64,000 nt of DNA from a virus (lineage: Duplodnaviria > Heunggongvirae > Uroviricota > Caudoviricetes), in the IMG/VR virus record IMGVR_UViG_3300032327_001521. One strand, given 5' to 3'. Positions 21,741 to 58,100 of this stretch are shown here, piece by piece. The notes beneath the pieces were generated by a model. The model worked only from the letters and a program-made list of their open reading frames with translations, made no database searches and was not told where the DNA came from. Each line of letters starts with the position of its first letter. Position 1 is the stretch's first letter. Position numbers and translations under genes: made by a program.

Positions 21741-21755
21741 TCTATTTATTTAGAG
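21741..21755 (-). promoter_or_regulatory. late-promoter-like motif (minus-strand CTCTAAATAAATAGA)
   Basis: one of at least 8 copies of a T[AG]TTTATTTA-type motif 15-50 nt upstream of structural gene starts. Confidence 0.3.
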
Positions 21756-22811
21756 TGAACTAACTATTTGGCCGAGTATTTTTTGGTAGTCCTCATGTGA
21801 GCACTCCGATAGAAACTTGCAAATTTCAAAAAATTCGTCAACTGTTTCAAATGACAGTGCTGGGTGCAGACTAGGGTCCTTGTACGATACTGGGATTACA
21901 CCTAGCATCAATGATTCATAGACTCGAGCTGGTGTAAAGCCTTCCTCTAGATAGAGAGTCTTACTCACATTTATTGAGACTAGCGAATGTAGTAAAGAAT
22001 CCCATATCTCTTCTCTATTTTGTCTTGGGCAAAGCCTTACCTGAGATTTAGTGGCTATCCACTCTTCTAGCAAATCCGTTGACTTTGCTGCAATGGTCAT
22101 TGTGAATTTCTCACCATTAAATTTCTGGACTTCATCTATTGCATTAATTATATCAATAATTATTGGGTCCTTTGAATGGCCTATCTTATAGTTATCAAAT
22201 GATAGATTGCCATAATATGTGAGATGAGACTGTCTGCTATAGGTATGCTCAGAGTGCAAAGCTAAACAATCTTCAAGAAATCGCTTACTGCAACCTTTCA
22301 TAGTAATGGATGGAATTTCTCGACAGAGCCCCAACTGCCTAGATGTCTCTAAGAAATCCAGGCTCAAAGAGAGATCTGTATCAAGAATAATAATATCTGC
22401 TGGATCATAGCCCGCAGCTAGAGCAGTGGTTATGATCTCTTCAAACCTGGCAGCATCATTGAGCTTCTTCTCCAAAGTTGAGAGATTTCTAAATCTAGCC
22501 TTTAGGAAAATTTTTGAATAGTGTCTCATTTTGATCCTATTTAGGACCGTATCAAATTGAATTCGATAGTCAAAAACAAGTTCATTGCAGTACTTTTCAA
22601 ATACTTTGCCAATCTTATCATTTGGAAAAATTGGCCGTATATTGCCGGTCTTGCCTTTATCAATATAATTAAAAAAATCAAATCCATCAACTTGATATGA
22701 TCGTGCAATCTCATCAAGTAGACCTAATTGATAAAAAGTATGGCCTGGAATATTATCATCAAATATGCCTAACTGGCCAAAATATGCATAGAGTGCACGG
22801 GTCTTTTCCAT
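21750..22811 (-). CDS. hypothetical protein, weak GT-B glycosyltransferase-like C-terminal motif
   Basis: 353 aa; ESLMLGVIPVSY resembles the E-x7-E / G-x-P-V motif of GT-B C-terminal domains; weak. Confidence 0.3.
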   Translation of the reverse strand: MEKTRALYAYFGQLGIFDDNIPGHTFYQLGLLDEIARSYQVDGFDFFNYIDKGKTGNIRPIFPNDKIGKVFEKYCNELVFDYRIQFDTVLNRIKMRHYSKIFLKARFRNLSTLEKKLNDAARFEEIITTALAAGYDPADIIILDTDLSLSLDFLETSRQLGLCREIPSITMKGCSKRFLEDCLALHSEHTYSRQSHLTYYGNLSFDNYKIGHSKDPIIIDIINAIDEVQKFNGEKFTMTIAAKSTDLLEEWIATKSQVRLCPRQNREEIWDSLLHSLVSINVSKTLYLEEGFTPARVYESLMLGVIPVSYKDPSLHPALSFETVDEFFEICKFLSECSHEDYQKILGQIVSSL

Positions 22812-22828
22812 ATGATTAATCTATACTT

Positions 22829-23590
22829 TTAGTAAGAGCCATTTGACTTTTCATTAGTAATCCTTAGAAAGCGTTTGAATGTAATTATACCTTCGTTAAT
22901 TGACTTGAAGAATATTTTATTGAAATCTTTTAGGTCCTGTTTATAACCAGATTGGGTTTCATCTGTAGAATTCTCAGTCCATTGATAAGACCAAAACAAT
23001 TCTTTTGGCGTTTTAAATCCAAAGAATTCAAGTACCTGCCTTTCGGTTTTTATTGCCTCATCACCATTCCAATTATGACCAACTGAAATAACTCCGCAAT
23101 CAATATCTTTTAATATGTTGGATTCGCCTAATGTAGTGTGCCTATTTTCTAGCCAAGTTAGCCTTTCTACTAATTTAGCATATACAGCATTCATTTTGCC
23201 CCATCTTATAGAACCAAAGAAAACGACAGCATCAGACTTCAATAATTCATTGACAACTTTATACAATTCGTCATCTTTGTTATTAAAGGAAGCCCAACAT
23301 CTTAATTCGCCAGTTTTATCTTTGCCATTTTTGAGTAAGGCTTTTTTAACTCCACAGTAATTACCTGTTTTAGAACTGACATTGCCTTCACACTCATAGA
23401 TTTTTAGCTTGGAAATATCAATAATTGTGACTTTATTGGGTCCTAACTTTTCCTGTAAAAGATAAGCTACTGAAGAAGATTTTGGAGTATCGTCTTTATG
23501 CCCTGACCAACGATTGGAAGTTAACAGAAAAAGAACTTTTTCCTTCTTTTCTAGGTATTTTAAAGTTTTGTTAAATTTTTCGTTAGTCAT
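22829..23590 (-). CDS. flavodoxin-like fold protein (NAD(P)H-dependent FMN reductase-like)
   Basis: VLFLLTSNRWSGHK resembles the phosphate-binding loop of flavodoxin-like reductases; weak. Confidence 0.3.
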   Translation of the reverse strand: MTNEKFNKTLKYLEKKEKVLFLLTSNRWSGHKDDTPKSSSVAYLLQEKLGPNKVTIIDISKLKIYECEGNVSSKTGNYCGVKKALLKNGKDKTGELRCWASFNNKDDELYKVVNELLKSDAVVFFGSIRWGKMNAVYAKLVERLTWLENRHTTLGESNILKDIDCGVISVGHNWNGDEAIKTERQVLEFFGFKTPKELFWSYQWTENSTDETQSGYKQDLKDFNKIFFKSINEGIITFKRFLRITNEKSNGSY

Positions 23591-23607
23591 ATTTACTCTT
23601 TATAATT

Positions 23608-25126: not shown

Positions 25127-26665
25127 TCAGACTTTTTTTTTGGAAAGCTCCAATTCAATATAGTGATTCTTAAGAGAATTAACGTTCTTCTCAATTGCAA
25201 CTTTAAGATCTGACAATTGATTATGATATTCTTCAGATAGACCTGGATCGCTTAGGGCTTCATCTAATTGAGCAATGGTTTGCTCTAATTTAGAGAGGTC
25301 AACCTCAACTGATTTCTTGTCCTCTTCAATTTGGCGTACAAATTTCTCACGCTCTTCAAGTTCAATTGCATACATTTCGCTAACATCGTAATTGAATTTC
25401 TCCATCACATAATTATGAAAATCTAGGCCTTCCATCTTTTTAACAATACGAGTGTGAGCGTATTTTTCAAAAACATAAAGAGCTTCGCCAATTGTAAATA
25501 CAATAGAGTCTGCATCAAGTCTCTCATTAACAATCTTCTTTGCAAACTCAAGATTAACAATCATGTCCAAATTATTGAATAATTTGGTTAGAGTAGCTCG
25601 GGTTTCCATCTGCTCCATTAAGAATATCTCAGATAGTTCAATTGATTTTAGGTCTTCGATCGTGTTTCCGTTAATCTTTAGAGCTAATGATCCTTCCTCA
25701 TTTACTGCAAATGCAATTTCAAGGTTACGACCTTTTGCAAAGATTTCAGATTCGCGCTCCTTAAAATTAAGGCTAGCAAATGTTTCGCAAACTTCAACAA
25801 ATTCTGGATATTCTGCAACATCTGCTTCTGTGACTTGAACAGGGGCTTCGTCTTCGGATAGTTTAACAAATTTATTATCAACAAAAACTACTGCAACTGA
25901 CTCAGAGATCTTATAGAATGGTGCAATCACTGACTTAACTTTGGCATCTCCATTTCCAATACCAATACTAAATTTGCCTTGAGCTTTTGCCTCAACCATA
26001 CTTAGCGAATTAATTAGCCTTGTGATTATTGGCATTACTGGCTTACCGCGTAATTTCATTTTGATTGAATCCGCTGTATAGATTTCTTCTAATAGACAAG
26101 TTTCAAGTTCGGCAATAACTTCACGATATAGAATAGCACCAGTTTGGCGCATTTCAAAAATTGCGTTAATTACCTCCAATTTTGAACGATTTTCATTAAC
26201 GTAATTAGTTAGTTCAGCGATAGTCGATTCAACTAATGGATCGTATGCAAAGCCGCTTAGTGATTCAATAAGTGTTCCAATTACTCTAAATTCCGGCGTA
26301 ACTGAAAGCTTTTGCTCAAGCACTGAAATTGAATACTTAAAAGACGGATCCTTATATAGAGAAGACTCCTTTAGTGCTTTAACCTTAAGTGAGAGACCTG
26401 CCTCTTTTGCCATATCCTGAAGTCGCTTGGTTGGCTTTTCTGCCAATTTCATGAATTTAGCAACAACCTCCTTTAAGTTCTCGTTTAGAGTAGCGTCTGC
26501 CATTCCGCTAAGATTGGCAAGAGCATTTTCGAGAATTTGGTCAGATGGAACGCCTAATAGAACGCTGTTATTTATGGATTCGAGCACCATCTTAATGATG
26601 ACACTATTACTAATGCTAGGATTAGACTTTAGCTCGGAGGTTAATTCTTGTATGAGACTGTTCAT
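25127..26665 (-). CDS. hypothetical protein (virion/assembly candidate)
   Basis: 512-aa ORF; preceded by TTATTTAT motifs. Confidence 0.5.
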   Translation of the reverse strand: MNSLIQELTSELKSNPSISNSVIIKMVLESINNSVLLGVPSDQILENALANLSGMADATLNENLKEVVAKFMKLAEKPTKRLQDMAKEAGLSLKVKALKESSLYKDPSFKYSISVLEQKLSVTPEFRVIGTLIESLSGFAYDPLVESTIAELTNYVNENRSKLEVINAIFEMRQTGAILYREVIAELETCLLEEIYTADSIKMKLRGKPVMPIITRLINSLSMVEAKAQGKFSIGIGNGDAKVKSVIAPFYKISESVAVVFVDNKFVKLSEDEAPVQVTEADVAEYPEFVEVCETFASLNFKERESEIFAKGRNLEIAFAVNEEGSLALKINGNTIEDLKSIELSEIFLMEQMETRATLTKLFNNLDMIVNLEFAKKIVNERLDADSIVFTIGEALYVFEKYAHTRIVKKMEGLDFHNYVMEKFNYDVSEMYAIELEEREKFVRQIEEDKKSVEVDLSKLEQTIAQLDEALSDPGLSEEYHNQLSDLKVAIEKNVNSLKNHYIELELSKKKV

Positions 26666-26683: not shown

Positions 26684-26720
26684 TGTTATTTATTTTGCAA
26701 ATTCGGTAACTTTATTTATC
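26684..26720 (-). promoter_or_regulatory. two copies of the TTATTTAT motif upstream of gene 25127..26665
   Basis: tgttatttatttt and tttatttatc. Confidence 0.3.
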
Positions 26721-26739: not shown

Positions 26740-28728
26740 TTAAATAGAACTTGGACTAAGTCCACTGGAAGTTTGTGATGGCCGTACTGGAGTTGAGGCC
26801 GCCGTATTTAAGGTAGTTGCCTTCTCTATAATACGAGATTCTTCAGATTTCTTCTTTAACGACTCAGTCAAAGTTTCATTCTTGACAGTAAGCTCGGTAA
26901 CCTGTTTTTGCAAACTTGCAATTGTAGCATTATTTAGCAAAGCAGTTGCAGCATCCTCTGCTGCAGAGATAACTCCTGAGTAATTAACCGATGATGTCCA
27001 TTTTCCTGTATAGAGCATGGTTTCGGTACCATCAGTCTTAGACACAATTGATATATGAAACTGTTCATCAGTTGTCTCTAATAATGACTTAGCCTTTTCC
27101 TTAGGTATTCGAAAACATATTTCTCCTCGGCTTGGGCTTGTAAGCGTTGTATTTGTTACCGTGGCAAAAACAAAATCAGTTGTGCTACCAAAAACTAATT
27201 TGAATTCAGAGTTGTTATTTAAGTTGACCCTATCCTGTTTTGTAGAATCTAATGGATTAGCCTGATAAACTGTAAACTTAACCAAATTGTCAGTTGGATC
27301 AATCGGCAAAGTTAGTCGGCCTTGTCCATATACTACTTGGTCTGACTCACTGCCTACTTTTTGTAGAGCATTCTTTTGACTAATTCTAATATTTGACTGC
27401 TTTAACGGTACGTATTCAGGAATCTTACGCTCAACCACAATAGGTCGACCGCTACCACCGGATGGTAAACCTAAGCTTTGAGTTTTAACATTTACCTGAG
27501 CTGACTTTGGTGAAAATATTGAACCTATTTCAAAATTTTTCTGTACAATCTTATTGTAAACCTTCATTGATTGAGGGCTATCTAATAAGGTCAGCTTTGC
27601 TAAGCTACGGCCATATTTGTTTGGATTGATTACACTTAATGCGCCAGTTCGTATTACCTGTTCACCAGTCTTACGATTTAGTAGGCGTAGAGTATAGTCA
27701 ATTGACATCGATATTGCAAAACCGGCGTTTCTTAAAATTGGTCGATAACTTAGAGGCAGGTCAAAATTATCCTCTTGATAAACAATTAGATTGCCAGCTT
27801 GGATAAAATTTGAACCAAGTTGTTCATATACCTGTAGTTGATGAGATAGTATCCAGTCCTGATCAACTCCACTCTCATTAAGAGATGCAATCAAAGAATC
27901 TGGGAATGCTTGATTCCAGGTGGCAAAAAATTCAATATAGTCTCCATCTGTTGCCTCTATGATATGACACCCAAGACCATTAAACTTATTGTTTTGAGAG
28001 ATTGCGCCCTCATTATAATTATTGATTTGATATCGATCATACGTTATATTATTAGGCGCATTATACTCTTCGTATACGGCTTCTGCAAAAAATACCGTAA
28101 TCGGAGCACCCTTAATAAATCCAACTCCGCCTGTGATGATGTGCTCAAATGAGGCTGCTCCAAATTGTGCAAAATCTGCATTGAGTTTTGGAATAGATGG
28201 AATCTTTAGTTCAACATACTTATCGTATATAGTATTTGCAAGAAATAGAGGTTGAGTATTGTAAGTGAATATTTCCTGAGCGGTTACTGAGTCTAATAAT
28301 ATGTTAGCAAGTTGTAGTTGGCTTAGATCATTTAGTGTTTGCTTAACACCAAAGATTACGTTTTCAACCTCTGTAAAATTAAAACCCGATGCAAAATGAA
28401 CCCTAACTGTATCCATTACCAAATTTGTACTGGCTGCCTGAGGGACTGCTGTTTGGGTAAGCAATGGATCAAATTCAGTATAGATTGGACTAAGAGTAGG
28501 GTCAATATACACTGCTTTGGAACCACCAACCGATACAATACTTAGGTCTCTTGAATTATTGGTTACACTTCGATAGCCGTCAGTATTGTAAATTTGACGA
28601 GATTCTGTGTGAGCATTTGTTAGTACATAAAAATCAGAAGTCAATAACTCTGAGCCCGGATCATCAACTGGCGTTAGCCTGTACTCTAGTACACAATAGT
28701 CAGATAAATTTATAAAATTGGTATTCAT
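26740..28728 (-). CDS. hypothetical virion structural protein (662 aa)
   Basis: large beta-rich ORF in structural region; function not determinable from sequence. Confidence 0.45.
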   Translation of the reverse strand: MNTNFINLSDYCVLEYRLTPVDDPGSELLTSDFYVLTNAHTESRQIYNTDGYRSVTNNSRDLSIVSVGGSKAVYIDPTLSPIYTEFDPLLTQTAVPQAASTNLVMDTVRVHFASGFNFTEVENVIFGVKQTLNDLSQLQLANILLDSVTAQEIFTYNTQPLFLANTIYDKYVELKIPSIPKLNADFAQFGAASFEHIITGGVGFIKGAPITVFFAEAVYEEYNAPNNITYDRYQINNYNEGAISQNNKFNGLGCHIIEATDGDYIEFFATWNQAFPDSLIASLNESGVDQDWILSHQLQVYEQLGSNFIQAGNLIVYQEDNFDLPLSYRPILRNAGFAISMSIDYTLRLLNRKTGEQVIRTGALSVINPNKYGRSLAKLTLLDSPQSMKVYNKIVQKNFEIGSIFSPKSAQVNVKTQSLGLPSGGSGRPIVVERKIPEYVPLKQSNIRISQKNALQKVGSESDQVVYGQGRLTLPIDPTDNLVKFTVYQANPLDSTKQDRVNLNNNSEFKLVFGSTTDFVFATVTNTTLTSPSRGEICFRIPKEKAKSLLETTDEQFHISIVSKTDGTETMLYTGKWTSSVNYSGVISAAEDAATALLNNATIASLQKQVTELTVKNETLTESLKKKSEESRIIEKATTLNTAASTPVRPSQTSSGLSPSSI

Positions 28729-29546: not shown

Positions 29547-29769
29547 TGTCTAGTTGTTGAACCATTTTATAAAAATCTGGAACCTCTCCGGTGTCCACTT
29601 TTATTCTATCTATTAAATTAGCCTCAGCTTCTCGTGTTTGAGCAAGTTCAAATTCAATACTGTTTTTTTGAAGAGACAATAATTTAGTCTGTTCATCCAA
29701 TACTGCGAGTGACTGCTTTATTCTAGCATAGCTATCAATTATCCTTTTAACCTCTGGCAAATAATTCAT
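29524..29769 (-). CDS. hypothetical small coiled-coil protein
   Basis: 81-aa ORF. Confidence 0.35.
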   Translation of the reverse strand: MNYLPEVKRIIDSYARIKQSLAVLDEQTKLLSLQKNSIEFELAQTREAEANLIDRIKVDTGEVPDFYKMVQQLDNGSIRIY

Positions 29770-31037
29770 TAAATAGTTCTAATTTTAATTCCGTGAATGA
29801 AAAGTGAATCGTGTATAGCCTGTAAATAATATTCGCTCAAACCTAGGGAATTCCCAGCCATTTCTTCAGCTGGCTTTACCTCCGTAACAGCAGGCTGTGC
29901 AAGCTGACTTGACTGATTTACTGTATTGCTTGAATTATTATTGAATATTTGATTAGCTAAGGCTGATTCTGTTTGAGCTGGCTGTGTAAGAGTTGACAAC
30001 TTATCAGTAATACTGGAAGTCATTGTATTAGTTGTATTAGTTATAACCTTGCCAAGGTTATCAACACCCTGTGCTACCTGATTTGGTGGATTTAATATTT
30101 GATTTACCAGTGACTTATTCTTTATTGGATTGGTTGTCTTAACCGATACATCATTACTATATTGTTTAGTATTGATAGACTGCGAATTTTGTGATGCGTT
30201 ATTTGTAACTGATTGCAGATTATCAATTGCACTTAAGAAGCTTGATGTTGTATCAATACTAGACTCATCTATTGATTCAACCTTAGTTGACTCAGCCAGG
30301 GACGTCATTGATGGGCCTATGCTGTTTATTAGCGAATATATGCTATCTGTATACGAAGCAGCAGGTTTGGTTATAGCCTTATTCATATTCATAATTTGCA
30401 TACTATTAGATGAGCTAGGCTGTGTTCTATTCTCTGTACTCGGCAAGCCCTTATCCTGCCTTGGCACAGGCTGTGCAACAGTATTTACAATGGAGGTTGG
30501 AGTAAGTCTAGGCTCTGCTTCCGGTTGACTAGGCTTGTTAACTAAATTTAGAATAGAACTAACCATTGAATTTACAAAGCCTGTCTTTGATATATTTTGA
30601 GCAATACTAGTGGATGGGCTCATTGAGAGAGACGTCATTGCATTAAATTTAGAGTTTAATACTTCCTCTTGTGCATAGGTCTCTGATAGAGTTGACAAAA
30701 TATTATTGATTATAGATTTGGCAGGTTCAGGAAATTCAGCCAGGCTATAATCAAATGAATTGTTTACAGTTGAGTTATTGGAAGTTGATATATTATTGGT
30801 AACCGGCACAAGCTCTTTCTCAAGTGTTTGCACGGTAAGGTCAGGCACAGTAATCGGTGAGCTCTTTACTTGAGATGATACGCTACTGCTTGGTAATACC
30901 GCATCGGTTTGCTTAGATAGCAACTCTCCAAAAGTAGGAAAAGTTGATTTACTAGGTCTACCGTCAACTGCTAATTGAGCAATTCTGCCAGGCGACATCA
31001 TGCCTGCATCGTATCCATTAAACAGATCTTCTTCCAA
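29769..31037 (-). CDS. Ser/Thr/Asn-rich low-complexity protein
   Basis: 422 aa; TTG start in track, probable true ATG start at 31001 (MMSPGR). Confidence 0.45.
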   Translation of the reverse strand: MEEDLFNGYDAGMMSPGRIAQLAVDGRPSKSTFPTFGELLSKQTDAVLPSSSVSSQVKSSPITVPDLTVQTLEKELVPVTNNISTSNNSTVNNSFDYSLAEFPEPAKSIINNILSTLSETYAQEEVLNSKFNAMTSLSMSPSTSIAQNISKTGFVNSMVSSILNLVNKPSQPEAEPRLTPTSIVNTVAQPVPRQDKGLPSTENRTQPSSSNSMQIMNMNKAITKPAASYTDSIYSLINSIGPSMTSLAESTKVESIDESSIDTTSSFLSAIDNLQSVTNNASQNSQSINTKQYSNDVSVKTTNPIKNKSLVNQILNPPNQVAQGVDNLGKVITNTTNTMTSSITDKLSTLTQPAQTESALANQIFNNNSSNTVNQSSQLAQPAVTEVKPAEEMAGNSLGLSEYYLQAIHDSLFIHGIKIRTI

Positions 31038-31052: not shown

Positions 31053-31066
31053 TGTTATTTATCAGG
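31053..31066 (-). promoter_or_regulatory. late-promoter-like motif (minus CCTGATAAATAACA)
   Basis: nearly identical to the copy at 42214-42228. Confidence 0.3.
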
Positions 31067-32253: not shown

Positions 32254-32276
32254 GTACTATACTGGGTTTATTGAAA

Positions 32277-33084: not shown

Positions 33085-33411
33085 TTAGATCATGGTTGCA
33101 GTTGTATTAGTGGTACCAAAGAGTGTTACGCTACCTGATCCAACCGTTATCTTGGCAATATTTGCATAGAATGTTCCACCACCAAGCAGATATGCAACAA
33201 CACCGCTGCCTGATGTTCCTTGGTCAACAGTCCATATTGTTACACTCTTAGCTGTAGCGCTTGGATTATGGACGGCAAACCAATTTGGAGACCATGTTCC
33301 AATTGACCCATTTGAATCACCGCGACCAGACCCGTTGGTAAACGTCGGTGTGTAGAGTGCAGTGCTATCTGAAGCAGTATGAGTCTTTATGAATTTAGCA
33401 ATATATGGCAT
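33085..33411 (-). CDS. small beta-rich protein, tandem paralog B (start moved to MPYIAKFIKTH)
   Basis: aligns end-to-end with paralog A; the track's longer start would overlap the upstream gene. Confidence 0.5.
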   Translation of the reverse strand: MPYIAKFIKTHTASDSTALYTPTFTNGSGRGDSNGSIGTWSPNWFAVHNPSATAKSVTIWTVDQGTSGSGVVAYLLGGGTFYANIAKITVGSGSVTLFGTTNTTATMI

Positions 33412-33427
33412 CTGAGTTATATGGTTT

Positions 33428-34132
33428 TTAGCAAGCACAATCGTTTGGATCGGTATTGCTTTTTGCGTATATGACCACTCCCGTAACTTTGATACTGAAA
33501 TCAGCATTTGGGTTGTAGATCTCTAGCTTATTTATTAGAGAGTCAGCTCCTCGAGTCTCGGGGTTTACGAAGTGCGCAAAAAACTCGTGTAATGGCATTG
33601 TAAATTCATCTAGATTTCGGTTGGTTATCTTAATCTGGCATTCGTAATCAGCTGGGAGTACATCATTTCCATTCTTGTCCTTCATTGGGTACTTGATATA
33701 GAGCATGCAGCCCCTAGCATAGTTACGATCGTTTTGAACAACATAATAATAAGGAGTGCCAGATGGATCAGCTCCGTTAATCTCAACATACTCATTCCCA
33801 GTCCCGAATGGATAATTAGATGGGTTTCCAGAAGGCTGATATGGAATGACGGAATCAGTATCATTGTCATATACTGATAAGGTTTCGCCAGCACATACTT
33901 CAAAATCAATGGCTAGACTGCTGTCAACTGGGTATGCGAAATTAGACAACTCGCAAAAATTGGTTTCCTTTTGCGATCCATTAAAGATTGAAAAACATTT
34001 GTCAACTAGTCGTAGGGCACGCTTAGTTGGCAAGGTTGAGCAAAGATTAGCGAATGCATCACTAACTCGTTTAGCTAAAGGATCATCATTGTATTTGATA
34101 TAAGCCATTCTTGATAGAACATTTTTAATCAA
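33428..34132 (-). CDS. hypothetical protein
   Basis: 234-aa ORF. Confidence 0.45.
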   Translation of the reverse strand: MIKNVLSRMAYIKYNDDPLAKRVSDAFANLCSTLPTKRALRLVDKCFSIFNGSQKETNFCELSNFAYPVDSSLAIDFEVCAGETLSVYDNDTDSVIPYQPSGNPSNYPFGTGNEYVEINGADPSGTPYYYVVQNDRNYARGCMLYIKYPMKDKNGNDVLPADYECQIKITNRNLDEFTMPLHEFFAHFVNPETRGADSLINKLEIYNPNADFSIKVTGVVIYAKSNTDPNDCAC

Positions 34133-35021: not shown

Positions 35022-35051
35022 ATAATAGAATTTTTTACTATTTATTCTAGC

Positions 35052-35871: not shown

Positions 35872-36498
35872 TTAAAAATATTGCGCTAGGTTATCTTGCA
35901 TGTGTGGGTTGTTTGCTAACACTCGATCCTTAAGCATTCTACGAGCCTTTCGAATCTTGGTTTTAACCGTGTTTAGGTTCATTTGATATTTCTCAGCAAT
36001 TTCATTGCCCTTCATCAAATGAACCTCCTTATCAATTAGAATAGATTTTTCTAGACATTCTGGTAACTGTCGCATCTCAAGAGTTGTCATTGAATACAGA
36101 GAGTCCATGTAGATCTCACGCTCAAAGTTAGAAAGAGAAGTATCCTCGATTATTGGAGGAGTCAGCATATTATCAAGCCGTACTGCAAAATTGGTCTTTA
36201 GCTTATGCTTATGTAGCAATGATTCATTTTTTGCAATAGTATAGATCCAGGTAGTAAATCTAAACTTATCACTATATGACGCTAGCCCTTTAAATATTTT
36301 GAATAGGGTATTGTGCAAAACCTCATCCGTTTCATCTGGATCGTTAAAAAACTTCCAAATAAAATACTTAAGTTTTGGATACATGATTGTTGAAAGCCGA
36401 TTTCTATCCCTTTCTGTATATTCTCCACTCTTTATTTTCTCAGCGAGAGATTGCATCTCATCGTTGAGTTGGCGATTGACCGCGTCATATGAACTCAT
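35872..36498 (-). CDS. phage RNA polymerase sigma factor (sigma-70 region 2/4-like)
   Basis: FTTWIYTIAKNESLLH resembles region 2.2-2.4; C-terminal HTH MKGNEIAEKYQMNLNTVKTKIRKARRML resembles region 4. Confidence 0.55.
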   Translation of the reverse strand: MSSYDAVNRQLNDEMQSLAEKIKSGEYTERDRNRLSTIMYPKLKYFIWKFFNDPDETDEVLHNTLFKIFKGLASYSDKFRFTTWIYTIAKNESLLHKHKLKTNFAVRLDNMLTPPIIEDTSLSNFEREIYMDSLYSMTTLEMRQLPECLEKSILIDKEVHLMKGNEIAEKYQMNLNTVKTKIRKARRMLKDRVLANNPHMQDNLAQYF

Positions 36499-51215: not shown

Positions 51216-51230
51216 GTCTATTTATTTAGG
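51216..51230 (-). promoter_or_regulatory. late-promoter-like motif (minus CCTAAATAAATAGAC) upstream of the 943-aa fibre gene
   Basis: gtctatttatttagg; near-identical copy at 52049-52064. Confidence 0.35.
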
Positions 51231-51245: not shown

Positions 51246-52031
51246 TTAAAAGTTATAGTTTAGGTAATCAAATGAATAGCTAAAGAATGTTCCAAACCTA
51301 TAATATGCTCTAATACAAACCGCTAAACTTCGTAATCCTGGAAGAGTAGCTGACATGGTTAGATCGGAGCCATTTACCGGAGCTGCCGCTTGTATGCCTG
51401 TCCTGGTTTCGTACGTAGGGAATGAGTCCTTACTTGTATTCCAAATAAAACCTGCCTCAGTAAATTCGCTAGTTAGTCCAGCCCCAGGCCCAGTAAAACC
51501 AAAACCAAATTCAACAGTTGCTACGATATCACTGTTTGATGGTGTTACACTACTCATAAATGACTGAGGTAAACCCCAAGGATATAGAGCTGAATACCCT
51601 ATTCCCTGCTCATTTTGTGCATATGCTCGATAATATGCAATCTCGCTAACACTAACACTAAGGTCTGGTATTGAAAATCCAGGTGAAACTGTTGGATCGC
51701 CTGTTCCAGCATAAGTACCATAAGAGTAGTGATCGGTTGGATATTCACTAATATGATTAGGATTTGAATCTATTGTTATATAAATACCCCAATCACTTAT
51801 ACCAGAGGCTCCTTGATTTAGCACAAGCCCTCCAAATGTTGCATTAAAGGTAGAGTTGTTTTGGACAATTGAGTTTAGCTGAACAGTTGGTAATATACCA
51901 GATGTTGTGGTTGTAGTAGTTGCAGCCCCGCCAACTGCTGCACCTGAGAACCTCCAAGCTGAGCCGTTCCAGGCCCAACCCTCGTAAATTTGACCCGTAT
52001 TTAAGCTCGTTGATGGAAAGTCAAGTGCCAT
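51246..52031 (-). CDS. tail fibre/receptor-binding protein sharing the N-terminal fibre module
   Basis: MALDFPSTSLNTGQIYEGWAWNGSAWRF parallels the N-termini of the 52059 and 48364 genes. Confidence 0.5.
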   Translation of the reverse strand: MALDFPSTSLNTGQIYEGWAWNGSAWRFSGAAVGGAATTTTTTSGILPTVQLNSIVQNNSTFNATFGGLVLNQGASGISDWGIYITIDSNPNHISEYPTDHYSYGTYAGTGDPTVSPGFSIPDLSVSVSEIAYYRAYAQNEQGIGYSALYPWGLPQSFMSSVTPSNSDIVATVEFGFGFTGPGAGLTSEFTEAGFIWNTSKDSFPTYETRTGIQAAAPVNGSDLTMSATLPGLRSLAVCIRAYYRFGTFFSYSFDYLNYNF

Positions 52032-52048: not shown

Positions 52049-52064
52049 GTCTATTTATTTAAGG
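52049..52064 (-). promoter_or_regulatory. late-promoter-like motif (minus CCTTAAATAAATAGAC) upstream of gene 51246..52031
   Basis: gtctatttatttaagg. Confidence 0.35.
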
Positions 52065-54416
52065 TCCAGTTGTTGTAGTGGTCGTAGTTGCACAGGCAGC
52101 TCCCCAATTAGGTTTAGGTAGGGTCCAGGCAGTCGCGCCTGTACTGAAATTTGAAGGCTGAGTAGGTATTAGCGAAACACACCAACCACTAAGGTCCTGA
52201 TTAAATATGGATGCTCCATTAAACATTGAAAGCATACTAATGACCTTTGCGGTGTTCCAAGTGGTAATTGCTGAGTTAAACGAGGTTGCACCTGAGAACA
52301 TTTGATTCATACCAATGACATTTGATGTATTCCAGCTATCGAGAGGCTGATTAAACGAGGTTGCATCACGGAACGTTGAATTCATAGCTGTGACACTGCT
52401 AGTATTCCAGCTATCGAGAGGCTGATTAAACGAGGTTGCACCTGAGAACGTAGCGCTCATACCAATGACATTTGATGTATTCCAGCTATTGAGAGGCTGA
52501 TTAAACGAGGTTGCACCTGAGAACATCTGATTCATGTTAGTGACATTTGCCGTATTCCAACTATTGAGAGGCTGATTAAACGAGGTTGCACCATAGAACA
52601 TTAAGCTCATATTACCGACATTAGCTACATTCCAACTACTGAGCGGCTGGTTAAATGCGGTTGCATTTTGAAATATTCTACTCATGTCTGTGATGCTTGC
52701 TGTGTTCCAGCCAGCAACTGACGAGTTAAACGAGGTTGCACCATAGAACATTGAGCCCATGGCTATTAGACCGGTAGTGGTCCAATTATTAAGCGGCTGG
52801 TTAAACGAGGTTGCATTGTAGAACATAGCTGCCATATTAGTGACTTTTATTACGTTCCAACCATTAAGAGCCTGATTAAAGGCTATTGCAGATTGGAACA
52901 GGTTAGCCATGCGTGTGACATTTGCTACGTTCCAGCTATTGAGCGGCTGGTTGAATGAGCCTGCATTTCGAAATACATTGCTCATATCTGTGATATTCGT
53001 TGTGTTCCAGTCAGCAACTGATGAGTTAAACGCGGTTGCACCATAGAACATTGAGTCCATGCTAGTGAGCGCAGTAGTGGTCCAATTATTAAGAGGCCGA
53101 TTAAAGGCTGATGCAAGTTGGAACATACTAGTCATACTACTGACATTTGAAACGTTCCAGCTATTAAGAGGCTGGTTAAATGAGGCTGCACCGTAGAACA
53201 TTGCGACCATATTAGTGACGTTTGCTACATTCCAGCTATTAAGAGGCTGGTTAAACGAGGTCGCGTTGTAGAACATTGAGCCCATATTAGTGACATTTGC
53301 TGTTCCAGTTCCACTGGTCCATGCAACGGATGAGTTAAATGAGGTTGCACCATAGAACATTTGGTACATGTATGTAACACTTGAAACGTTCCAGCTATCT
53401 AGCGGCTGGTTAAAAGAGGTTGCGCCATAGAACATTGAGCCCATGTTAATAACACTTACTGTATTCCAGCTATCTAGCGGCTGATTAAATGAGGTTGCAT
53501 TTTGAAATATGCTACTCATACTTGTAACGCCACTAGTATTCCAACCAGTAACAGATGAGTTAAATAAGGTTGCGCCTTGGAACATACTGCTCATATTAGT
53601 GACATTTGCTGTATTCCAGCTATCAAGAGGCTGGTTAAATGAGCTTGCACTATTAAACATTTGAGTCATGTTAGTGACATTTGCTACATTCCAGCTATTA
53701 AGAGGCTGATTAAACGCGGTTGCACTTGAGAACGTAGCGCTCATATTAGTGACATTTGCTGTATTCCAGCTATCAAGAGGCTGGTTAAATGAGCTCGCGG
53801 ATTCGAACATTTGAGTCATGTCAGTGACATTCGCTGTGTTCCAATTGCTAATATCATAATTAAAATATTGGGCTGATTGGAACATACTGGCCAAGCTGGT
53901 CACCTGACTTAGATTTGGAGTATTGGTTGCGGTGAATCCAGTTAGGTTACTTGCTCCAGCAAACATGGATTCCATTGAAAGCCAGCCGTCATACGACCAG
54001 TCCGTAACATCTGTTAAGTAAGGTGCAAGGTCTCCAGCTATAAAATGCGGAAATACTCCGGTAATTGCAATTGACCAACTTGGACTGTCTCCACCGGATA
54101 AATTAATTATGTGATCATCGGTTAAGCCGTATGCACTACCACTTTGACTAGGATCACCAATATTATACCAGGAAAGGTTGTAATCATATGGATATATTGG
54201 GACACCTTCCTTGGTTTTTTGAATTGATATAGTAACTTCATTTGGTGAATCGGTTAGTATAAATGTAAAACCGTTAGGTGGTGCTGTTGTAGTAGTAGTA
54301 GTATCTCCAGGCGCGCCTATTGCCTCGGTAAAAAAGTCCCAAGCAGATCCATTCCAGATCCAAGCTTCGTATATTTGGCCGACTGTTAGACCGGCTGATG
54401 GAAAATCTAATGGCAT
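52059..54416 (-). CDS. receptor-binding protein with DUF285-type (bacterial surface protein 26-residue) repeats
   Basis: more than 20 tandem copies of F-x-gA-tsFNQ-pL-xsWN-vsnVTnMxxMF; N-terminal fibre module MPLDFPSAGLTVGQIYEAWIWNGSAWDF; C-terminal TTTTTTTGP. Confidence 0.6.
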   Translation of the reverse strand: MPLDFPSAGLTVGQIYEAWIWNGSAWDFFTEAIGAPGDTTTTTTAPPNGFTFILTDSPNEVTISIQKTKEGVPIYPYDYNLSWYNIGDPSQSGSAYGLTDDHIINLSGGDSPSWSIAITGVFPHFIAGDLAPYLTDVTDWSYDGWLSMESMFAGASNLTGFTATNTPNLSQVTSLASMFQSAQYFNYDISNWNTANVTDMTQMFESASSFNQPLDSWNTANVTNMSATFSSATAFNQPLNSWNVANVTNMTQMFNSASSFNQPLDSWNTANVTNMSSMFQGATLFNSSVTGWNTSGVTSMSSIFQNATSFNQPLDSWNTVSVINMGSMFYGATSFNQPLDSWNVSSVTYMYQMFYGATSFNSSVAWTSGTGTANVTNMGSMFYNATSFNQPLNSWNVANVTNMVAMFYGAASFNQPLNSWNVSNVSSMTSMFQLASAFNRPLNNWTTTALTSMDSMFYGATAFNSSVADWNTTNITDMSNVFRNAGSFNQPLNSWNVANVTRMANLFQSAIAFNQALNGWNVIKVTNMAAMFYNATSFNQPLNNWTTTGLIAMGSMFYGATSFNSSVAGWNTASITDMSRIFQNATAFNQPLSSWNVANVGNMSLMFYGATSFNQPLNSWNTANVTNMNQMFSGATSFNQPLNSWNTSNVIGMSATFSGATSFNQPLDSWNTSSVTAMNSTFRDATSFNQPLDSWNTSNVIGMNQMFSGATSFNSAITTWNTAKVISMLSMFNGASIFNQDLSGWCVSLIPTQPSNFSTGATAWTLPKPNWGAACATTTTTTTGP
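52106..53966 (-). repeat. DUF285-like 26-28-residue solenoid repeats (coding)
   Basis: visible period of about 80 nt across 1.8 kb. Confidence 0.6.
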
Positions 54417-54434: not shown

Positions 54435-55022
54435 TTATGTAATATCGATCAGGTAAGCAGCTACGTAAATCTTTACCGTGTAGTCTTGAGCGCCAACTAG
54501 CAGGTCACTAGCTTGGGTTGTGACCTGTATTGCTGCATTCTCAATTAGGTTAGACCAGCCATCAAAACCAGCAGGGGTTGGATAGCCTTTTGCAATATAT
54601 GTGCCATCTGTATCCATTATTCGAGTATTAAAATTAAAAATTGGGTCAGTTGAGGCTGCATTGACATCTAGCGTACTACCGCTTAGTGATCCACTGCCTC
54701 CAGTCCTACGTGCAACGGCAGAAATCACATCCCAGGCTTTTCCAACACCTGGCGCTTCAAGACCTATCACTGCATAACTAGCAGCTGGAAAAGCTAACTG
54801 AGCAACTGTCAGCTCAACCGTGCCCATTACTAGACTTGGTCCGCTAGTTGGCTTAGGCTGAATCCACTGGTAAGAATCATCGTCATAGACGTAAACGTAC
54901 TCGATACCAGTATCAGTATTAAACCACCGATCGCCCTCGTTTATTGTACCTTCTGGCGCAATGTTCTGCGAATAGTAGGCTCCTCCACCGCCTCCTGCAT
55001 ATACTTGTGGATAGTGTCCCAT
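54435..55022 (-). CDS. tail fibre-associated protein
   Basis: 195 aa; motif RWFNTDTGIEYVYVYDDDSYQWIQ shared with the giant fibre (RLFNYDDGLEYAYVTDGGSNFWIQ). Confidence 0.5.
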   Translation of the reverse strand: MGHYPQVYAGGGGGAYYSQNIAPEGTINEGDRWFNTDTGIEYVYVYDDDSYQWIQPKPTSGPSLVMGTVELTVAQLAFPAASYAVIGLEAPGVGKAWDVISAVARRTGGSGSLSGSTLDVNAASTDPIFNFNTRIMDTDGTYIAKGYPTPAGFDGWSNLIENAAIQVTTQASDLLVGAQDYTVKIYVAAYLIDIT

Positions 55023-55051
55023 TGGTTAGTTAAAAATTTCAGTGAAGGACC

Positions 55052-55157
55052 GGTGTAAGGTAGGGGAGGTCACGAACAAGATTCCGCCCGTAGGCATAGC
55101 ATGAACAAGATTCTGCCCGTAGGCATAACACGAAACCGACAACCCCTACTCTACACC
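55052..55157. promoter_or_regulatory. inverted repeat enclosing two 25-nt direct repeats, between the giant fibre gene and gene 54435..55022
   Basis: arms ggtgtaaggtaggggagg (55052-55069) / aacccctactctacacc (55141-55157); direct repeats gaacaagattcYgcccgtaggcata at 55074-55098 and 55103-55127. Confidence 0.4.
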
Positions 55158-55186
55158 AAATCCTTCGATTTAAGTATTTCTATTTA

Positions 55187-58100
55187 TTAAGGAAGTCGTG
55201 TCTCAAACCAACATCTAAGTTCTGTGTTTGTAAAGCCTGTAGAAAGACTAGCACACGGCCCAAATTCCGAATAGACTCCAAACTCGTAATTGAAAGGAAA
55301 TTTATCATGGGATATTGCAACAACTCTGCTTAGTGGGCCGGATATTAATTGACCCAATCCTCCATTTGCGCTTGGTGACCATGCCACATACCTAAATGCA
55401 ATATACATTGGAGCATAATTCCTAGAATATGGAAAGCGTCGAGTTGGTGGGCCGCTAGCTCCGCCTATACCAGGAACAAGCATGGTCTCGTTAATTGGTG
55501 CACCCGAAGTTGACCTATACTTCACTAAACGATTTGCAAATCTGCCATTAATGTATTGAGCTACGTCTATCACTTGATTAATTGCAGTAACCTCGTAATG
55601 ATTTGGTCTACTTACGCCAACTACATCATTAAAAATAGCGCGCTTGTGAGTTCCTCCACGCGTCCAACCGCCTGATGTTGATTGCCATGGAAAATATGGA
55701 CTACTATTTGGTGGTACGTCTCCACCTACAAAGTGAGGTGGAGATACTACATATCCCGCTCCACGACTATTCTGGCCTGCGGTGTAGCTAACTCGGCGAC
55801 GATAATACACCATTTCCACAAAAATTCGGTATTGAGAGAGCAGCTCAGTAGTTAAATCAACTGCTACAACGTATGGAGCTGATTTTAAATTAAATCCGCT
55901 ACCTGGAGAATTGGTTGCAGTATCCCAATCCTGTAGTGAAACTGCTCCGCTCGTACCATTGACCTGTTGATATACTGCTCGTAATTTTACGATTGGAACT
56001 GGCAAGACTATGCCTACTCCGCCTGTACCTGAACCGCCTGACGAGCCGCCTCCGCTTATCCCGGATATCTGTATCCAGAAGTTTGAGCCGCCGTCAGTAA
56101 CATATGCATACTCAAGACCGTCATCATAATTAAAGAGGCGATCTCCAATATTCACTGAGGTTGGAAAACCTGATTGTGTGTAATATGTATGTGAAGTGCC
56201 AGATGAACCGCTTGTTCCAGAAGAACCACTTGAACCTGCTACACCGGATGTACCTGACGTACCGCTTGAACCTGCTACACCGCTTGTTCCAGAAGAACCG
56301 CTTGTGCCTGAAGAGCCTGATCCAGATGTACCTGACGTACCGCTTGTGCCTGAAGAGCCTGAGCCCCCGGTCCCGGATGTACCGGCTACAACTGTCGTCC
56401 ACGTTAATGGATATTGACCACTGTCTATTGCATTGAGTGTAAGAACCTGACCTGCTGTGCCTGCTGTAGTAGGTAGCCGGTATACTACATTTGCAGCTAG
56501 TGTGCCAGGTGCAGTAAAACCTGTGTAATTAGTTGAGCCAGTTTCTAAGAGTCTGATCTCACCGCTTGTGCCTGAGGTTGGGCCGATCGAGACAACTCCA
56601 TGTAATCTAGAGTTAGTAGAACCGCTTGTGCCGAATATTGCAATTGGGCTCCCTGTACTGTCCTCAACCATTACTACATTTGTGCTCGCAACTCCCTGTA
56701 CCCGGAGCTGAGCTCCGATTCCAGAAGTCATTGCTGTGACGTATGCACCAATATTGACGGCTCCGCCAAAATGAGCCTTGTCCTTTTCAATATAGATTGA
56801 CCATGGCGCATTTGTGTAGGTTGAAGCAACCTTTACACTTCTTCCAAGTAGGTCAGGTGTATTTGCTGGATCAAGTTTTGATTCAATATAGATTGACGCA
56901 AAATTTGTAAAACCTAAACCAAAATCCCAAAATGGAACTCCATCAGGATAGACGGCTTTACGTATGTAAACATCGTATCCTGTTCCAACGGCCAAGCTTG
57001 CTCCAGCTGAAGCATAATAACCTAGGTTAAGTGTTTTGGTTGATTGATATGAACGTGCAACACCTCCACCAAGTATTTGAGTTTCATAATAATTAGTAGT
57101 TGCATCTGTACCGATTGCACCATTAAAGTCAGCAAAGTGGGCCTGTGCAATCAGGTACTGGGCTCGCTGTGGATCAATCTGTGTAGTTGTAAGTTCTCCA
57201 ATGATACCACTAGTTGATGAACTGCCGCCAGATACAATATGCCTCTTATGCTTAAGAACTGTAACTCCAGATGTTCCACCAGTACCGCCTGGTGTATAAT
57301 CAGTATATGTATCTGCAATTGGATTAACCGGTTGTGTTATATTTTCCGAAACATATGCAATTACATTAATTTGAGGAGTACTATGATTTATGTAGCCAAA
57401 ACCGGATGGTGTATACGGATCGTCATTTCTAACAATATCATAATAGTTTAATAGGCTAAGCTTGGTTGCGCTCTCTCCACTTGATCCAACTATTACGGCT
57501 CCGCTAGTTCCACTTGGAGCAAGTCGTAAATTAATAGAAGATGTGCCAGTTGAGTCAGTTGCAGTTAGCAGCACATCACTAGCTCCGCCTGACATCATCC
57601 AATAGTTATTGACACCAGATGTATTGCCGACTGTAATTGGTCCAACAAATCCTTTGGTTCCAGTAATATACTGGTCACCTTGAGTCATTACGAAATCGGC
57701 ATTTGCACCAGAATCAGGTACAGTATAGGTTTTGCCAACTGCATGAGTTGCTAATTGCACAATTGAGTTTCCACTGGATGTTCCAGCAAAAGTATCATCG
57801 AGTGAAGTTCCGCTTGTTTGATATATGGCAAGTCGACCACCAACACCAGATCCAATATTGACACTTAGACCGGAAGTACCAGATGTACCGGAAGTACCAG
57901 CTGAACCGCTTGTGCCTGAAGTTCCAGAGCTACCAGAAGACCCGCTTGTTCCAGACGTGCCAGAAGAACCGGATGAGCCGGTTGTCCCAGAGCTACCCGA
58001 AGACCCGCCTGTTCCAGACGTGCCAGAAGAACCGGATGAGCCAGTTGTCCCGGATGAACCTGATGTACCTGAGCTACCGGAAGAACCGCCAGTCCCTGAC

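What the first reader, a model, noticed from the sequence alone, without database searches (positions are those of the whole stretch)
21741..55192. Recurrent TAAATAAATA-type motif upstream of structural genes: candidate late promoter for the phage-encoded sigma factor
Reading the coding (minus) strand, a motif of the form (C/T)T(A/G)AATAAATA(G/A/C)A occurs 15-50 nt upstream of the starts of at least eight structural or late genes. On the plus strand: tctatttatttagag 21741; tgttatttatttt 26684 and tttatttatc 26711; tgttatttatcagg 31053; tgtttatttatcagc 42214; gtctatttatttagg 51216; gtctatttatttaagg 52049; tctatttattaagg 55179. The copies before the three tail-fibre genes are nearly identical across 16 nt. 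The phage encodes its own sigma-like factor (35872..36498). The motif is reminiscent of the T4 late promoter TATAAATA.
Basis: seen in the sequence. Interest (0 to 1): 0.55.

Follow-up and report, generated by a model that had tools for sequence, protein, structure and literature searches.

The report
T4-late-like ATAAATA promoter in jumbo phage
A seven-base signal, ATAAATA, sits just upstream of about twenty genes in this large uncultured phage and is kept unchanged in dozens of relatives, so it is almost certainly a phage-specific promoter of the kind phage T4 uses for its late genes; which protein reads it is not settled.

Summary
ATAAATA occurs 24 times in the window, about what shuffles give, but 20 copies lie just upstream of, and pointing toward, a gene or the tmRNA (Fisher P=1e-20). 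Sites occur on both strands and outside the stated range. In more than 80 related IMG/VR contigs (sigma 60-100% identical) the heptamer is invariant upstream of orthologous genes while the flanks diverge.

The consensus is R-ATAAATA-R-N3-W-A. There is no information at -35. Spacing to ATG is bimodal: 5-7 nt, which looks leaderless, and 17-24 nt.

A second conserved class, (T)AGTATAAT, precedes the ligase, methyltransferase and glycosyltransferase genes. ATAAATA precedes the tail-fibre, baseplate/terminase and lysin genes. Together these fit a phage-specific, probably late, -10-only promoter like T4 TATAAATA, cyanophage NATAAATA and the ATAAATA of jumbo phage CBB.

The link to the sigma at 35872-36498 is unproven. 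That protein is an ECF-type sigma2+sigma4 factor, not gp55-like, and ECF sigmas normally need a -35 element. Its gene lies inside an ATAAATA-driven operon. No gp55 or gp33 was found, but most of the genome was not available.

Verdict: a new member of a known kind, of moderate interest.

The parts
2757..2763 (-). ATAAATA site. ATG lies 7 nt downstream (leaderless-like), before the ~230-aa ORF ending at 2048.
3527..3533 (+). ATAAATA site 48 nt before the VanY-type lysin/peptidase gene 3582-4910. Conserved in L087 and L088.
8520..8526 (+). ATAAATA site 24 nt before ORF 8551-8796.
10129..10135 (-). ATAAATA site 34 nt before ORF 9861-10094. Conserved in L086, L087 and L088.
11544..11550 (-). ATAAATA site directly after a terminator-like hairpin and 16 nt before a 37-aa lipoprotein-like ORF (11414-11527). 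The UvdE endonuclease gene 10395-11396 follows.
16228..16234 (-). ATAAATA site 39 nt before ORF 15163-16188. One arm of a divergent pair.
16259..16265 (+). ATAAATA site 8 nt before ORF 16274-17395 (leaderless-like). Other arm of the divergent pair. Conserved in L085.
21743..21749 (-). The preceding TAA is the stop codon of 21750-22811. Conserved in L083-L085 at 32-97% amino-acid identity.
26687..26719 (-). Relatives keep two or three tandem copies.
31056..31062 (-).
33529..33535 (-). ATAAATA site 21 nt before ORF 33085-33507. It looked intragenic only because of an over-long TTG ORF call.
35039..35045 (-). ATAAATA site 17 nt before ORF 34737-35021. Invariant in about 30 relatives at 37-94% amino-acid identity.
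42218..42224 (-). It heads the operon that runs through TerL, PhoH and the sigma gene. Invariant in about 20 relatives.
42260..42279 (+). Tandem ATAAATA (42260-42266) and TATAAT (42274-42279), 28 and 15 nt before the mature 5' end of the tmRNA gene. The ATAAATA-n7-TATAAT arrangement is conserved in most relatives, with a TACAAT variant of the second element in some.
42295..42664 (+). Phage-encoded tmRNA gene, a non-coding target of the motif.
   Evidence: Rfam RF00023, 77.9 bits, E=1.5e-28
42703..42709 (+). ATAAATA site directly after a terminator hairpin (42669-42695) and 6 nt before the ATG of 42716-43465 (leaderless-like). Spacing is mostly 5-7 nt across the relatives.
51219..51225 (-).
52052..52058 (-). 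It abuts the stop codon of 52059-54416.
55181..55187 (-). It overlaps the stop codon of the 2020-aa fibre gene and is followed by a 157-nt folded leader, then ORF 54435-55022.
62480..62486 (-). ATAAATA site 32 nt before ORF 61251-62447, which is followed by the 2020-aa tail-fibre gene 55187-61249.
35872..36498 (-). ECF-type sigma factor gene (sigma2 + sigma4, 208 aa). It is the only candidate reader visible in the window.
14407..14412 (-). Second promoter class, (T)AGTATAAT. This copy follows a terminator hairpin and lies exactly 6 nt before the ligase ATG in all five genomes compared. Other copies: 1475-, 7329-, 17950-, 24824-, 32276-, 47188-, 63472-.

Best explanation
ATAAATA, in the context R-ATAAATA-R-N3-W-A, is the core of a phage-specific promoter that consists of a -10-type element only.

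Proposed mechanism (inferred): host core RNA polymerase, carrying a phage-encoded specificity factor, binds the heptamer. It melts the DNA there and starts at the A six or seven bases downstream.

The resulting mRNAs would be of two kinds. Most would have a short A-rich leader of about 11-18 nt. When the ATG lies 5-7 nt from the motif, the mRNA would be leaderless.

The sites sit in the very short gaps between genes, often touching the upstream stop codon or a terminator hairpin. They therefore act as operon-head or internal booster promoters.

This class drives the tail-fibre, baseplate-packaging and lysis genes and is most likely the late class. A second conserved class, (T)AGTATAAT, drives DNA-metabolism and modification genes and is most likely read by the host primary sigma earlier in infection. 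The tmRNA gene carries both.

What is shown: non-random placement, orientation, spacing and deep conservation.

For: Placement in the window:
- 19 of 24 copies lie in called intergenic sequence, which is 5.2% of the window; a 20th site, at 33529, is also upstream of an ORF start. Fisher P=1.2e-20 and binomial P=4.6e-23.
- ATAAATA is the top intergenic 7-mer and is depleted inside genes.

Relatives (986 kb):
- 346 of 530 copies lie in about 10% intergenic sequence.
- 259 copies are co-oriented with the next gene and 40 are not.
- The heptamer is invariant upstream of orthologues of six or more genes at 32-97% amino-acid identity, while the flanks are unalignable.

Promoter-like geometry:
- A logo of 105 non-redundant sites shows about 0 bits from -50 to -4, so there is no -35 element. 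A is at 83% right after the motif and 75% at the sixth base after it. In the window that base is A at 16 of 20 sites and a purine at 19 of 20.
- Spacing to ATG is bimodal, 5-7 nt and 17-24 nt.
- The motif is conserved upstream of a non-coding tmRNA gene, in tandem with TATAAT.

Two classes that split by function:
- A separate conserved TATAAT class precedes the ligase (fixed 6-nt spacing), the methyltransferase and the glycosyltransferase.
- ATAAATA precedes tail fibres, the baseplate wedge/TerL operon and a VanY-type lysin.

Precedents:
- T4 late promoters are a -10-like element with no -35 conservation (PMC7892883).
- NATAAATA precedes late genes in T4-like cyanophages (PMC2984593).
- ATAAATA with an A/T-rich downstream stretch precedes structural genes in jumbo phage CBB (PMC5259590).
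- The divergent sigma gp36 of phiEco32 uses a single-element promoter (PMC12276001).
Against:
- The overall count of the heptamer is no higher than chance.
- Some downstream genes are not obviously late (UvdE, tmRNA, small unknown ORFs), and many have no annotation.
- The functional split rests on few annotated operons (5:1 against 0:4, Fisher P=0.048).
- The only sigma in view is ECF-type. That family normally needs a -35 element.
- No gp55, gp33 or clamp homologue was detected in the window or in the flanks of relatives (and the PHROG scans 8, 21, 22, 28, 29, 40, 41).
- In the window the sigma gene has no promoter of its own. It lies 5.7 kb behind an ATAAATA site.
Confidence: 0.7

Rival explanations
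1. The motif is a late promoter but is read by a gp55-like minimal sigma, with gp33 and a sliding clamp, encoded in the roughly 100-200 kb of the genome that lies outside the window. The ECF-type sigma would then control a different, smaller regulon or act on host genes.
For: - The motif matches 7 of 8 bases of the T4 late promoter and lacks a -35 element, as gp55 promoters do (PMC7892883).
- The phage has a T4-type terminase and baseplate wedge.
- T4-related jumbo phages usually carry both a minimal sigma and gp33 (PMC7824862).
- Phage CBB has the same ATAAATA motif together with a gp55-like protein (PMC5259590).
- ECF sigmas normally require a -35 element.
Against: - No gp55, gp33 or gp45 was detected by tblastn, phmmer or PHROG in the 64-kb window, in about 1 Mb of relatives' flanks, or in PAU.
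- The closest cultured relatives by TerL (PAU, PTm1) are not classical T4-like phages.
- In five relatives the ECF sigma gene has its own ATAAATA site ending 19 nt before its ATG. That is the autoregulatory layout typical of ECF sigmas.
Confidence: 0.3
2. The motif is a variant -10 element read by the host's own primary sigma. It would then be a general phage promoter with no temporal specificity.
For: - TGATAAATA resembles an extended -10 element (TGnTAnAAT-like) at 8 of the 20 sites.
- The sites precede genes of mixed function, including a tmRNA.
- The host is unknown, so its consensus cannot be checked.
Against: - A distinct, equally conserved TATAAT class coexists with it and partitions by gene function. 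Two sharply different invariant elements argue for two readers.
- In some relatives a gene has switched from TATAAT to ATAAATA rather than drifting between them.
- The heptamer is strictly invariant, 7 of 7 at hundreds of sites, which is unlike the degenerate host -10 elements.
- Bipartite sigma70-type promoters are not enriched (31 against 41 expected).
Confidence: 0.1
3. The motif acts at the RNA level, as a translation enhancer or ribosome-loading site in a host that lacks Shine-Dalgarno pairing, or as an endonuclease processing site in polycistronic mRNA.
For: - The distance to the start codon is very tight.
- Only 6 of 76 genes have a Shine-Dalgarno-like 4-mer.
- An A-rich tract follows the motif.
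- Many sites lie inside operons with no terminator upstream.
Against: - The motif is conserved upstream of a non-translated tmRNA gene, outside the mature RNA.
- A second spacing mode of 5-7 nt leaves no room for a ribosome-loading element, but matches the distance from a -10 element to a start site.
- The TATAAT class shows the same two spacing modes, including a fixed 6 nt before the ligase ATG.
- Several sites immediately follow intrinsic terminators.
Confidence: 0.05

Closest known systems
Phage T4 late promoter TATAAATA, read by gp55 with gp33 and the gp45 sliding clamp
   Same: - A single A/T-rich -10-type element, identical at 7 of 8 positions.
- No conserved -35 element (PMC7892883).
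- Preferred A where T4 geometry places the start site.
- Precedes virion and lysis genes.
   Different: - The leading T is not conserved; R precedes the heptamer.
- No gp55, gp33 or gp45 homologue was found in the sequence available.
- The phage's visible sigma has a sigma4 domain, which gp55 lacks.
- The coupling to the start codon is much tighter, and there is a leaderless class.
NATAAATA late-promoter motif of T4-like cyanomyoviruses (S-PM2, Syn9)
   Same: - The same heptamer with a free first base.
- Found upstream of late-gene homologues.
- Some genes carry overlapping early and late promoters (PMC2984593), as the tmRNA gene does here.
   Different: Those phages have clear g55, g33 and g45 homologues. 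This family is only distantly related to them (TerL about 30% identical).
ATAAATA motif of Rak2-like jumbo phages CBB and GAP32
   Same: - The same heptamer with an A/T-rich stretch downstream.
- About 35 sites before structural genes in a jumbo myovirus (PMC5259590).
- No gp33 or gp45 was detected there either.
   Different: CBB has a gp55-like protein as well as an RpoD-like sigma. Here only an ECF-type sigma is seen. The evidence there was a MEME prediction, as here, without transcript mapping.
phiEco32 gp36, a divergent sigma with a single-element middle/late promoter (AATGTA centred at -11.5)
   Same: A phage-encoded sigma-family protein that redirects host core polymerase to promoters defined by one -10-region element (PMC12276001). 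It is the best precedent for the ECF-type sigma reading ATAAATA.
   Different: The motif is different. gp36 did not appear among the sequence or fold matches of this sigma. gp36 works with the co-factor gp79, and no equivalent is known here.
Bacterial ECF (group 4) sigma factors and their promoters
   Same: - The sigma at 35872-36498 has the sigma2 + sigma4 architecture. Its closest solved relatives are sigmaE, AlgU, SigW and SigH.
- Its gene lies downstream of the candidate target promoter, as in ECF autoregulation.
   Different: - ECF promoters are bipartite, with a conserved -35 (AAC-type) and a GC-containing -10. The ATAAATA sites have no -35 information.
- No anti-sigma gene was recognised next to the sigma gene.

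Membership tests
T4-type late promoter system (gp55/gp33/gp45) | A -10-region element matching TATAAATA | tested here: met
   ATAAATA is invariant at 20 window sites and at 105 non-redundant family sites. The leading T is not conserved.
T4-type late promoter system (gp55/gp33/gp45) | No conserved -35 element | tested here: met
   Information content is about 0 bits from -50 to -4.
T4-type late promoter system (gp55/gp33/gp45) | Precedes late (virion, lysis) genes and not early genes | tested here: inconclusive
   The motif precedes the tail-fibre, baseplate/TerL and lysin genes, while DNA-metabolism operons carry TATAAT. It also precedes UvdE, the tmRNA and many unknown genes. No timing data exist.
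T4-type late promoter system (gp55/gp33/gp45) | A gp55 homologue (minimal sigma without sigma4) is encoded by the phage | tested here: not met
   - BLASTP of the window sigma against T4 gp55 gives E=2.0.
- tblastn and phmmer with gp55 give no hit in the window, the relatives' loci or PAU.
- No gp55 PHROG family was hit in about 70 window proteins.
- Caveat: more than 100 kb of the genome was not available.
T4-type late promoter system (gp55/gp33/gp45) | gp33 co-activator and gp45 sliding clamp coupling transcription to replication | not testable with these tools
   No gp45 hit was found in the window. gp33 is too small and divergent to detect, and the replication module lies outside the sequence held.
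T4-type late promoter system (gp55/gp33/gp45) | Transcription starts 6-7 nt downstream of the element | not testable with these tools
   Indirect evidence only: A is enriched at the sixth base after the motif, and a spacing mode of 5-7 nt would put the ATG at +1.
ECF (group 4) sigma-70 family | Only sigma2 and sigma4 domains are present | tested here: met
   - Pfam Sigma70_r2 at 35.2 bits, with a weak r4_2 hit.
- NCBIfam TIGR02985 at 4.9e-18, and TIGR02937 (sigma70-ECF) exactly at its cut-off.
- AlphaFold2 model with pLDDT 88.
- Foldseek top hits are sigmaE, AlgU, SigW and SigH. The sigma2 domain matches at TM 0.8-0.88 and the sigma4 domain at TM 0.74.
ECF (group 4) sigma-70 family | Cognate promoters are bipartite with a conserved -35 element | tested here: not met
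   There is no -35 conservation at the ATAAATA sites. No other bipartite conserved motif was noticed in the intergenic regions.
ECF (group 4) sigma-70 family | The sigma gene is preceded by its own target promoter (autoregulation), usually with an adjacent anti-sigma gene | tested here: inconclusive
   - The sigma gene is in the operon headed by the ATAAATA site at 42218.
- Five relatives have an ATAAATA site ending 19 nt before the sigma ATG.
- The downstream 166-aa and 104-aa proteins give no anti-sigma hit.

The most novel reading that the evidence does not exclude
An ECF-type, two-domain sigma factor, conserved across a widespread family of 250-270-kb jumbo phages known from environmental metagenome contigs, has been retooled to read a promoter with only a -10 element (ATAAATA). 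It would then be functionally convergent with T4 gp55 without gp55, gp33 or a clamp, and would autoregulate from the same motif. Its mRNAs would often be leaderless.

Analogous single 'ATAnATA' promoters occur in more distant jumbo and huge phages: TTATACATA in Sphingomonas phage PAU, ATACATA in Tenacibaculum phage PTm1, and AATATATAA in the 642-kb phage LR756502, which carries a homologous ECF sigma. These would then be specificity variants of one ancient phage sigma-promoter system.
Probability: 0.3. Interest if true: 0.6.

Novelty: new member of a known kind. Interest (0 to 1): 0.42.

Why it matters
- The motif gives a ready operon map for an abundant, uncultured jumbo-phage family in which most genes have no annotation. 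Genes behind ATAAATA can be provisionally treated as late or virion genes, and genes behind TAGTATAAT as early or middle.
- It extends the T4-style late promoter, a -10 element alone, to a lineage only distantly related to T4.
That would be useful for understanding sigma evolution and as an orthogonal promoter/sigma pair.
- The fixed 5-7-nt spacings predict widespread leaderless mRNAs, which can be tested directly in metatranscriptomes.

Tried and rejected
- Near-identity DNA search of 12 kb against the phage collection gave no match. There is no cultured close relative.
- Counting the longer string TATTTATT gave 11 against 7.4 expected, not significant. The signal is in the placement of the 7-mer, not in its count.
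- A canonical sigma70 bipartite promoter scan showed no enrichment (31 against 41 expected).
- The Bacteroidetes -7 motif TAnnTTTG is not enriched: 3 intergenic copies out of 75. A Bacteroidetes-type host promoter is therefore not what is conserved here.
- Comparison with T4 gp55 and gp45 found nothing.
- Relatives of the tail-fibre-adjacent gene 51246-52031 could not be found. Conservation of the sites at 51219, 52052 and 55181 could therefore not be tested.
- I tried to assign functions to the unannotated genes behind the motif. PDB sequence searches for 25127-26665, 26740-28728, 29769-31037 and 19398-21722 gave no hits.
- An AlphaFold2 model of the 512-aa protein behind the tandem promoters (pLDDT 79) had no meaningful fold match, with TM <=0.18. 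Its role remains unknown.
- Extending the genome beyond the window failed. The source contig (ENA ERZ28594406 scaffold_9, 169 kb) ends about 2.3 kb past the left edge, and no DNA was returned for the right side.
- A PDB fold search of the sigma did not bring up gp55 or phiEco32 gp36.

Full report
**Context.** The window is part of an uncultured jumbo myovirus.
- It carries a T4-type large terminase (37504-39450), a baseplate wedge gene (40432-42195), PhoH, collagen-like tail fibres, DNA ligase, ThyA, SSB, a VanY-type lysin and a sigma-like gene.
- There is no close DNA match among deposited phages. TerL is 30-37% identical to those of huge metagenomic phages (LR745206, LR756502), Sphingomonas phage PAU, the Lak phages and Tenacibaculum phage PTm1.
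- The sequence comes from a 169-kb ENA scaffold.
- IMG/VR holds more than 80 relatives whose sigma is 60-100% identical. Several are contigs of 253-271 kb.

**The observation.**
The shared core is ATAAATA.
- The heptamer occurs 24 times on both strands. Dinucleotide shuffles give 22.1 +/- 4.4, so the count itself is unremarkable.
- The placement is not. 19 copies lie in the 5.2% of the window that my gene calls leave intergenic (Fisher P=1.2e-20). A 20th copy, at 33529, is really 21 nt upstream of ORF 33085-33507.
- ATAAATA is the most frequent intergenic 7-mer (17 against 2.4 expected). Only four copies (26569, 48708, 48753, 51780+) are not upstream of a gene.
- Every one of the 20 sites points toward the downstream gene, including five on the plus strand (3527, 8520, 16259, 42260, 42703).
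The copy at 55179 is 158 nt from the next ORF, with a strongly folded leader in between. The 'TAA' in front of the tail-fibre copies is the stop codon of the preceding gene.

**Conservation.** I located orthologues of the downstream genes in the relatives and read their upstream sequences.
- The heptamer is invariant before orthologues of 25127 (two or three tandem copies), 34737, 40432, 42716, 3582, 9861, 16274 and 19398, at 32-97% amino-acid identity. The surrounding intergenic sequence is unalignable.
- Over 986 kb of relatives, 346 of 530 copies fall in about 10% intergenic sequence. 259 are co-oriented with the next gene and 40 are not.

**Anatomy.**
- A logo of 105 non-redundant sites carries essentially no information from -50 to -4, so there is no -35 element.
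- R precedes the heptamer. A follows it in 83% of sites.
- The sixth base after it is A in 75% of family sites, and in 16 of 20 window sites, with a purine in 19 of 20.
- The distance from the motif to the ATG is bimodal. One mode is 17-24 nt (78 sites) and a sharp second mode is 5-7 nt (20 sites). A further peak at 47-48 nt comes from the tandem copies.
- From my knowledge of T4, the late element TATAAATA spans about -13 to -6. The A-rich position is where +1 would then fall, and the 5-7-nt class would give leaderless mRNAs that begin at the ATG.
- Several sites directly follow terminator hairpins (11544, 42703). Others abut the upstream stop codon.

**A non-coding target.**
- Rfam finds a tmRNA gene at 42295-42664 (77.9 bits), which ARAGORN missed.
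- It is preceded by ATAAATA (42260) and, seven bases later, by TATAAT (42274). Most relatives keep this arrangement; some have TACAAT as the second element (read on the opposite strand in the 40432 rows).
- A signal conserved upstream of an untranslated RNA gene argues for transcription rather than translation.

**A second class.**
- (T)AGTATAAT lies about 20 nt upstream of the methyltransferase (24824), the glycosyltransferase (47188), ORF 17426-17929 and others.
- It lies exactly 6 nt before the ligase ATG in all five genomes compared.
- The annotated operons behind TATAAT are DNA-metabolism or modification operons. Those behind ATAAATA are tail fibre, baseplate/terminase and lysin.
- The numbers are small (Fisher P=0.048).
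- Orthologues of 31240 carry TATAAT in close relatives and ATAAATA in distant ones, which is a discrete class switch.
- Two sharply distinct, invariant elements imply two readers. TATAAT is the near-universal housekeeping -10 element, so ATAAATA is most simply the phage-specific one.

**The sigma.**
- The protein at 35872-36498 is an ECF-type sigma.
  - Pfam Sigma70_r2.
  - NCBIfam Sig70_bacteroi1 at 4.9e-18, and sigma70-ECF exactly at its cut-off.
  - Its best solved relatives by sequence are AlgU, sigmaE and SigW.
  - The AlphaFold2 model (pLDDT 88) matches ECF sigmas over both domains.
- It shows no similarity to T4 gp55. No gp55 or gp45 homologue was found in the window, in the relatives' flanks or in PAU.
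- ECF sigmas normally need a -35 element, and these sites have none.
- The sigma gene has no promoter of its own in the window. It lies 5.7 kb behind the ATAAATA site at 42218, in the operon with the baseplate wedge, TerL and PhoH.
  - Five relatives have an ATAAATA site ending 19 nt before the sigma ATG.
  - Many relatives have a GTATAAT about 3.95 kb upstream.
- This layout fits ECF-style autoregulation seeded from a TATAAT promoter, but it proves nothing.
- A single-element promoter read by a divergent phage sigma has a precedent in phiEco32 gp36 (PMC12276001).

**Wider pattern.**
- More distant jumbo phages have their own single upstream heptamers of the form ATAnATA.
  - In PAU, TTATACATA occurs 33 times in intergenic sequence and 3 times in coding sequence on the gene strand.
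  - In PTm1 the motifs are ATACATA and ATAGATA.
  - In the sampled structural region of LR756502, ATATATA occurs in 33 upstream regions against 2.2 expected, often 4-7 nt before the ATG.
- LR756502 carries a clear homologue of this ECF sigma.
- PAU has only a weak sigma-like protein, gp1, which is annotated as a virion component.

**Comparison with what is known.**
- T4 late promoters are a -10-like element without a -35 element, read by gp55 with gp33 and the clamp (PMC7892883).
- T4-like cyanophages use NATAAATA (PMC2984593).
- Jumbo phage CBB has ATAAATA with an A/T-rich downstream stretch before structural genes (PMC5259590).
- The present motif is the same kind of signal in a new lineage.
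- It fails the gp55 membership test in the sequence available. It works like a T4 late promoter, but whether it belongs to that system is open.

**Verdict.**
- The promoter reading is well supported. The late timing is plausible. The sigma assignment is an open hypothesis at about 0.35.
- The finding is a new member of a known kind and of moderate interest.

Noticed in passing
window 42295-42664 (+): Phage-encoded tmRNA gene (Rfam RF00023, 77.9 bits) that ARAGORN does not report. It is flanked by a tandem ATAAATA/TATAAT promoter pair and a terminator hairpin at 42669-42695.
   Followed up: partly
window 55023-55176 (-): A 157-nt leader between the ATAAATA site and ORF 54435-55022 folds into a long imperfect hairpin (MFE -53.8 kcal/mol, z=-4.66). 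It contains a tandem 27-nt direct repeat, ATGCCTACGGGC(A/G)GAATCTTGTTC. There is no Rfam match and no phage-database match. It may be an RNA stabiliser, a processing site or a regulatory leader.
   Followed up: partly
window 14407-14412 (-) and relatives L084, L085, L087, L088: The TATAAT before the DNA ligase gene is always exactly 6 nt from the ATG and directly follows a terminator hairpin. This predicts a leaderless ligase mRNA. Together with the 5-7-nt ATAAATA class, it suggests that leaderless mRNAs are common in this phage family.
   Followed up: partly
L091, L093-L096 (Sphingomonas phage PAU); L092 (Tenacibaculum phage PTm1); L090 (LR756502): Distantly related jumbo and huge phages each have their own over-represented upstream heptamer of the form ATAnATA: TTATACATA in PAU, ATACATA/ATAGATA in PTm1, and AATATATAA in LR756502. 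The spacing to the ATG is similar. I found no description of these motifs in the held literature.
   Followed up: partly
L085, L062, L058 compared with window 32276-32281: Orthologues of gene 31240-32253 carry TATAAT in close relatives but ATAAATA in more distant ones. This is a discrete switch of promoter class at one gene.
   Followed up: no
window 11414-11527 (-): An unannotated 37-aa ORF with a lipoprotein-like signal peptide (MKKKRIAFAVLAAIALAALTMSC...), 16 nt downstream of an ATAAATA site. It is possibly a spanin-like or lysis-related small protein.
   Followed up: no
whole window: Only 6 of 76 called genes have a Shine-Dalgarno-like 4-mer at -18 to -4. Upstream regions are A-rich instead. 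This points to Shine-Dalgarno-independent translation and may be a clue to the unknown host.
   Followed up: no
window 25127-26665 (-): This 512-aa protein lies behind two tandem ATAAATA copies (three in some relatives). It is conserved in 97 protein clusters. The model has a long helical N-terminus, a beta-rich middle and a C-terminal coiled coil (pLDDT 79), with no fold match in the PDB. It is presumably a highly expressed virion or scaffold protein of unknown type.
   Followed up: partly
L093 94-1182 (PAU gp1): PAU gp1 is annotated both as an RNA polymerase sigma factor and as an internal capsid vertex protein. Its Pfam r2 and r4 hits are below threshold. A packaged sigma-like protein would be an interesting way to start phage-specific transcription.
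   Followed up: no
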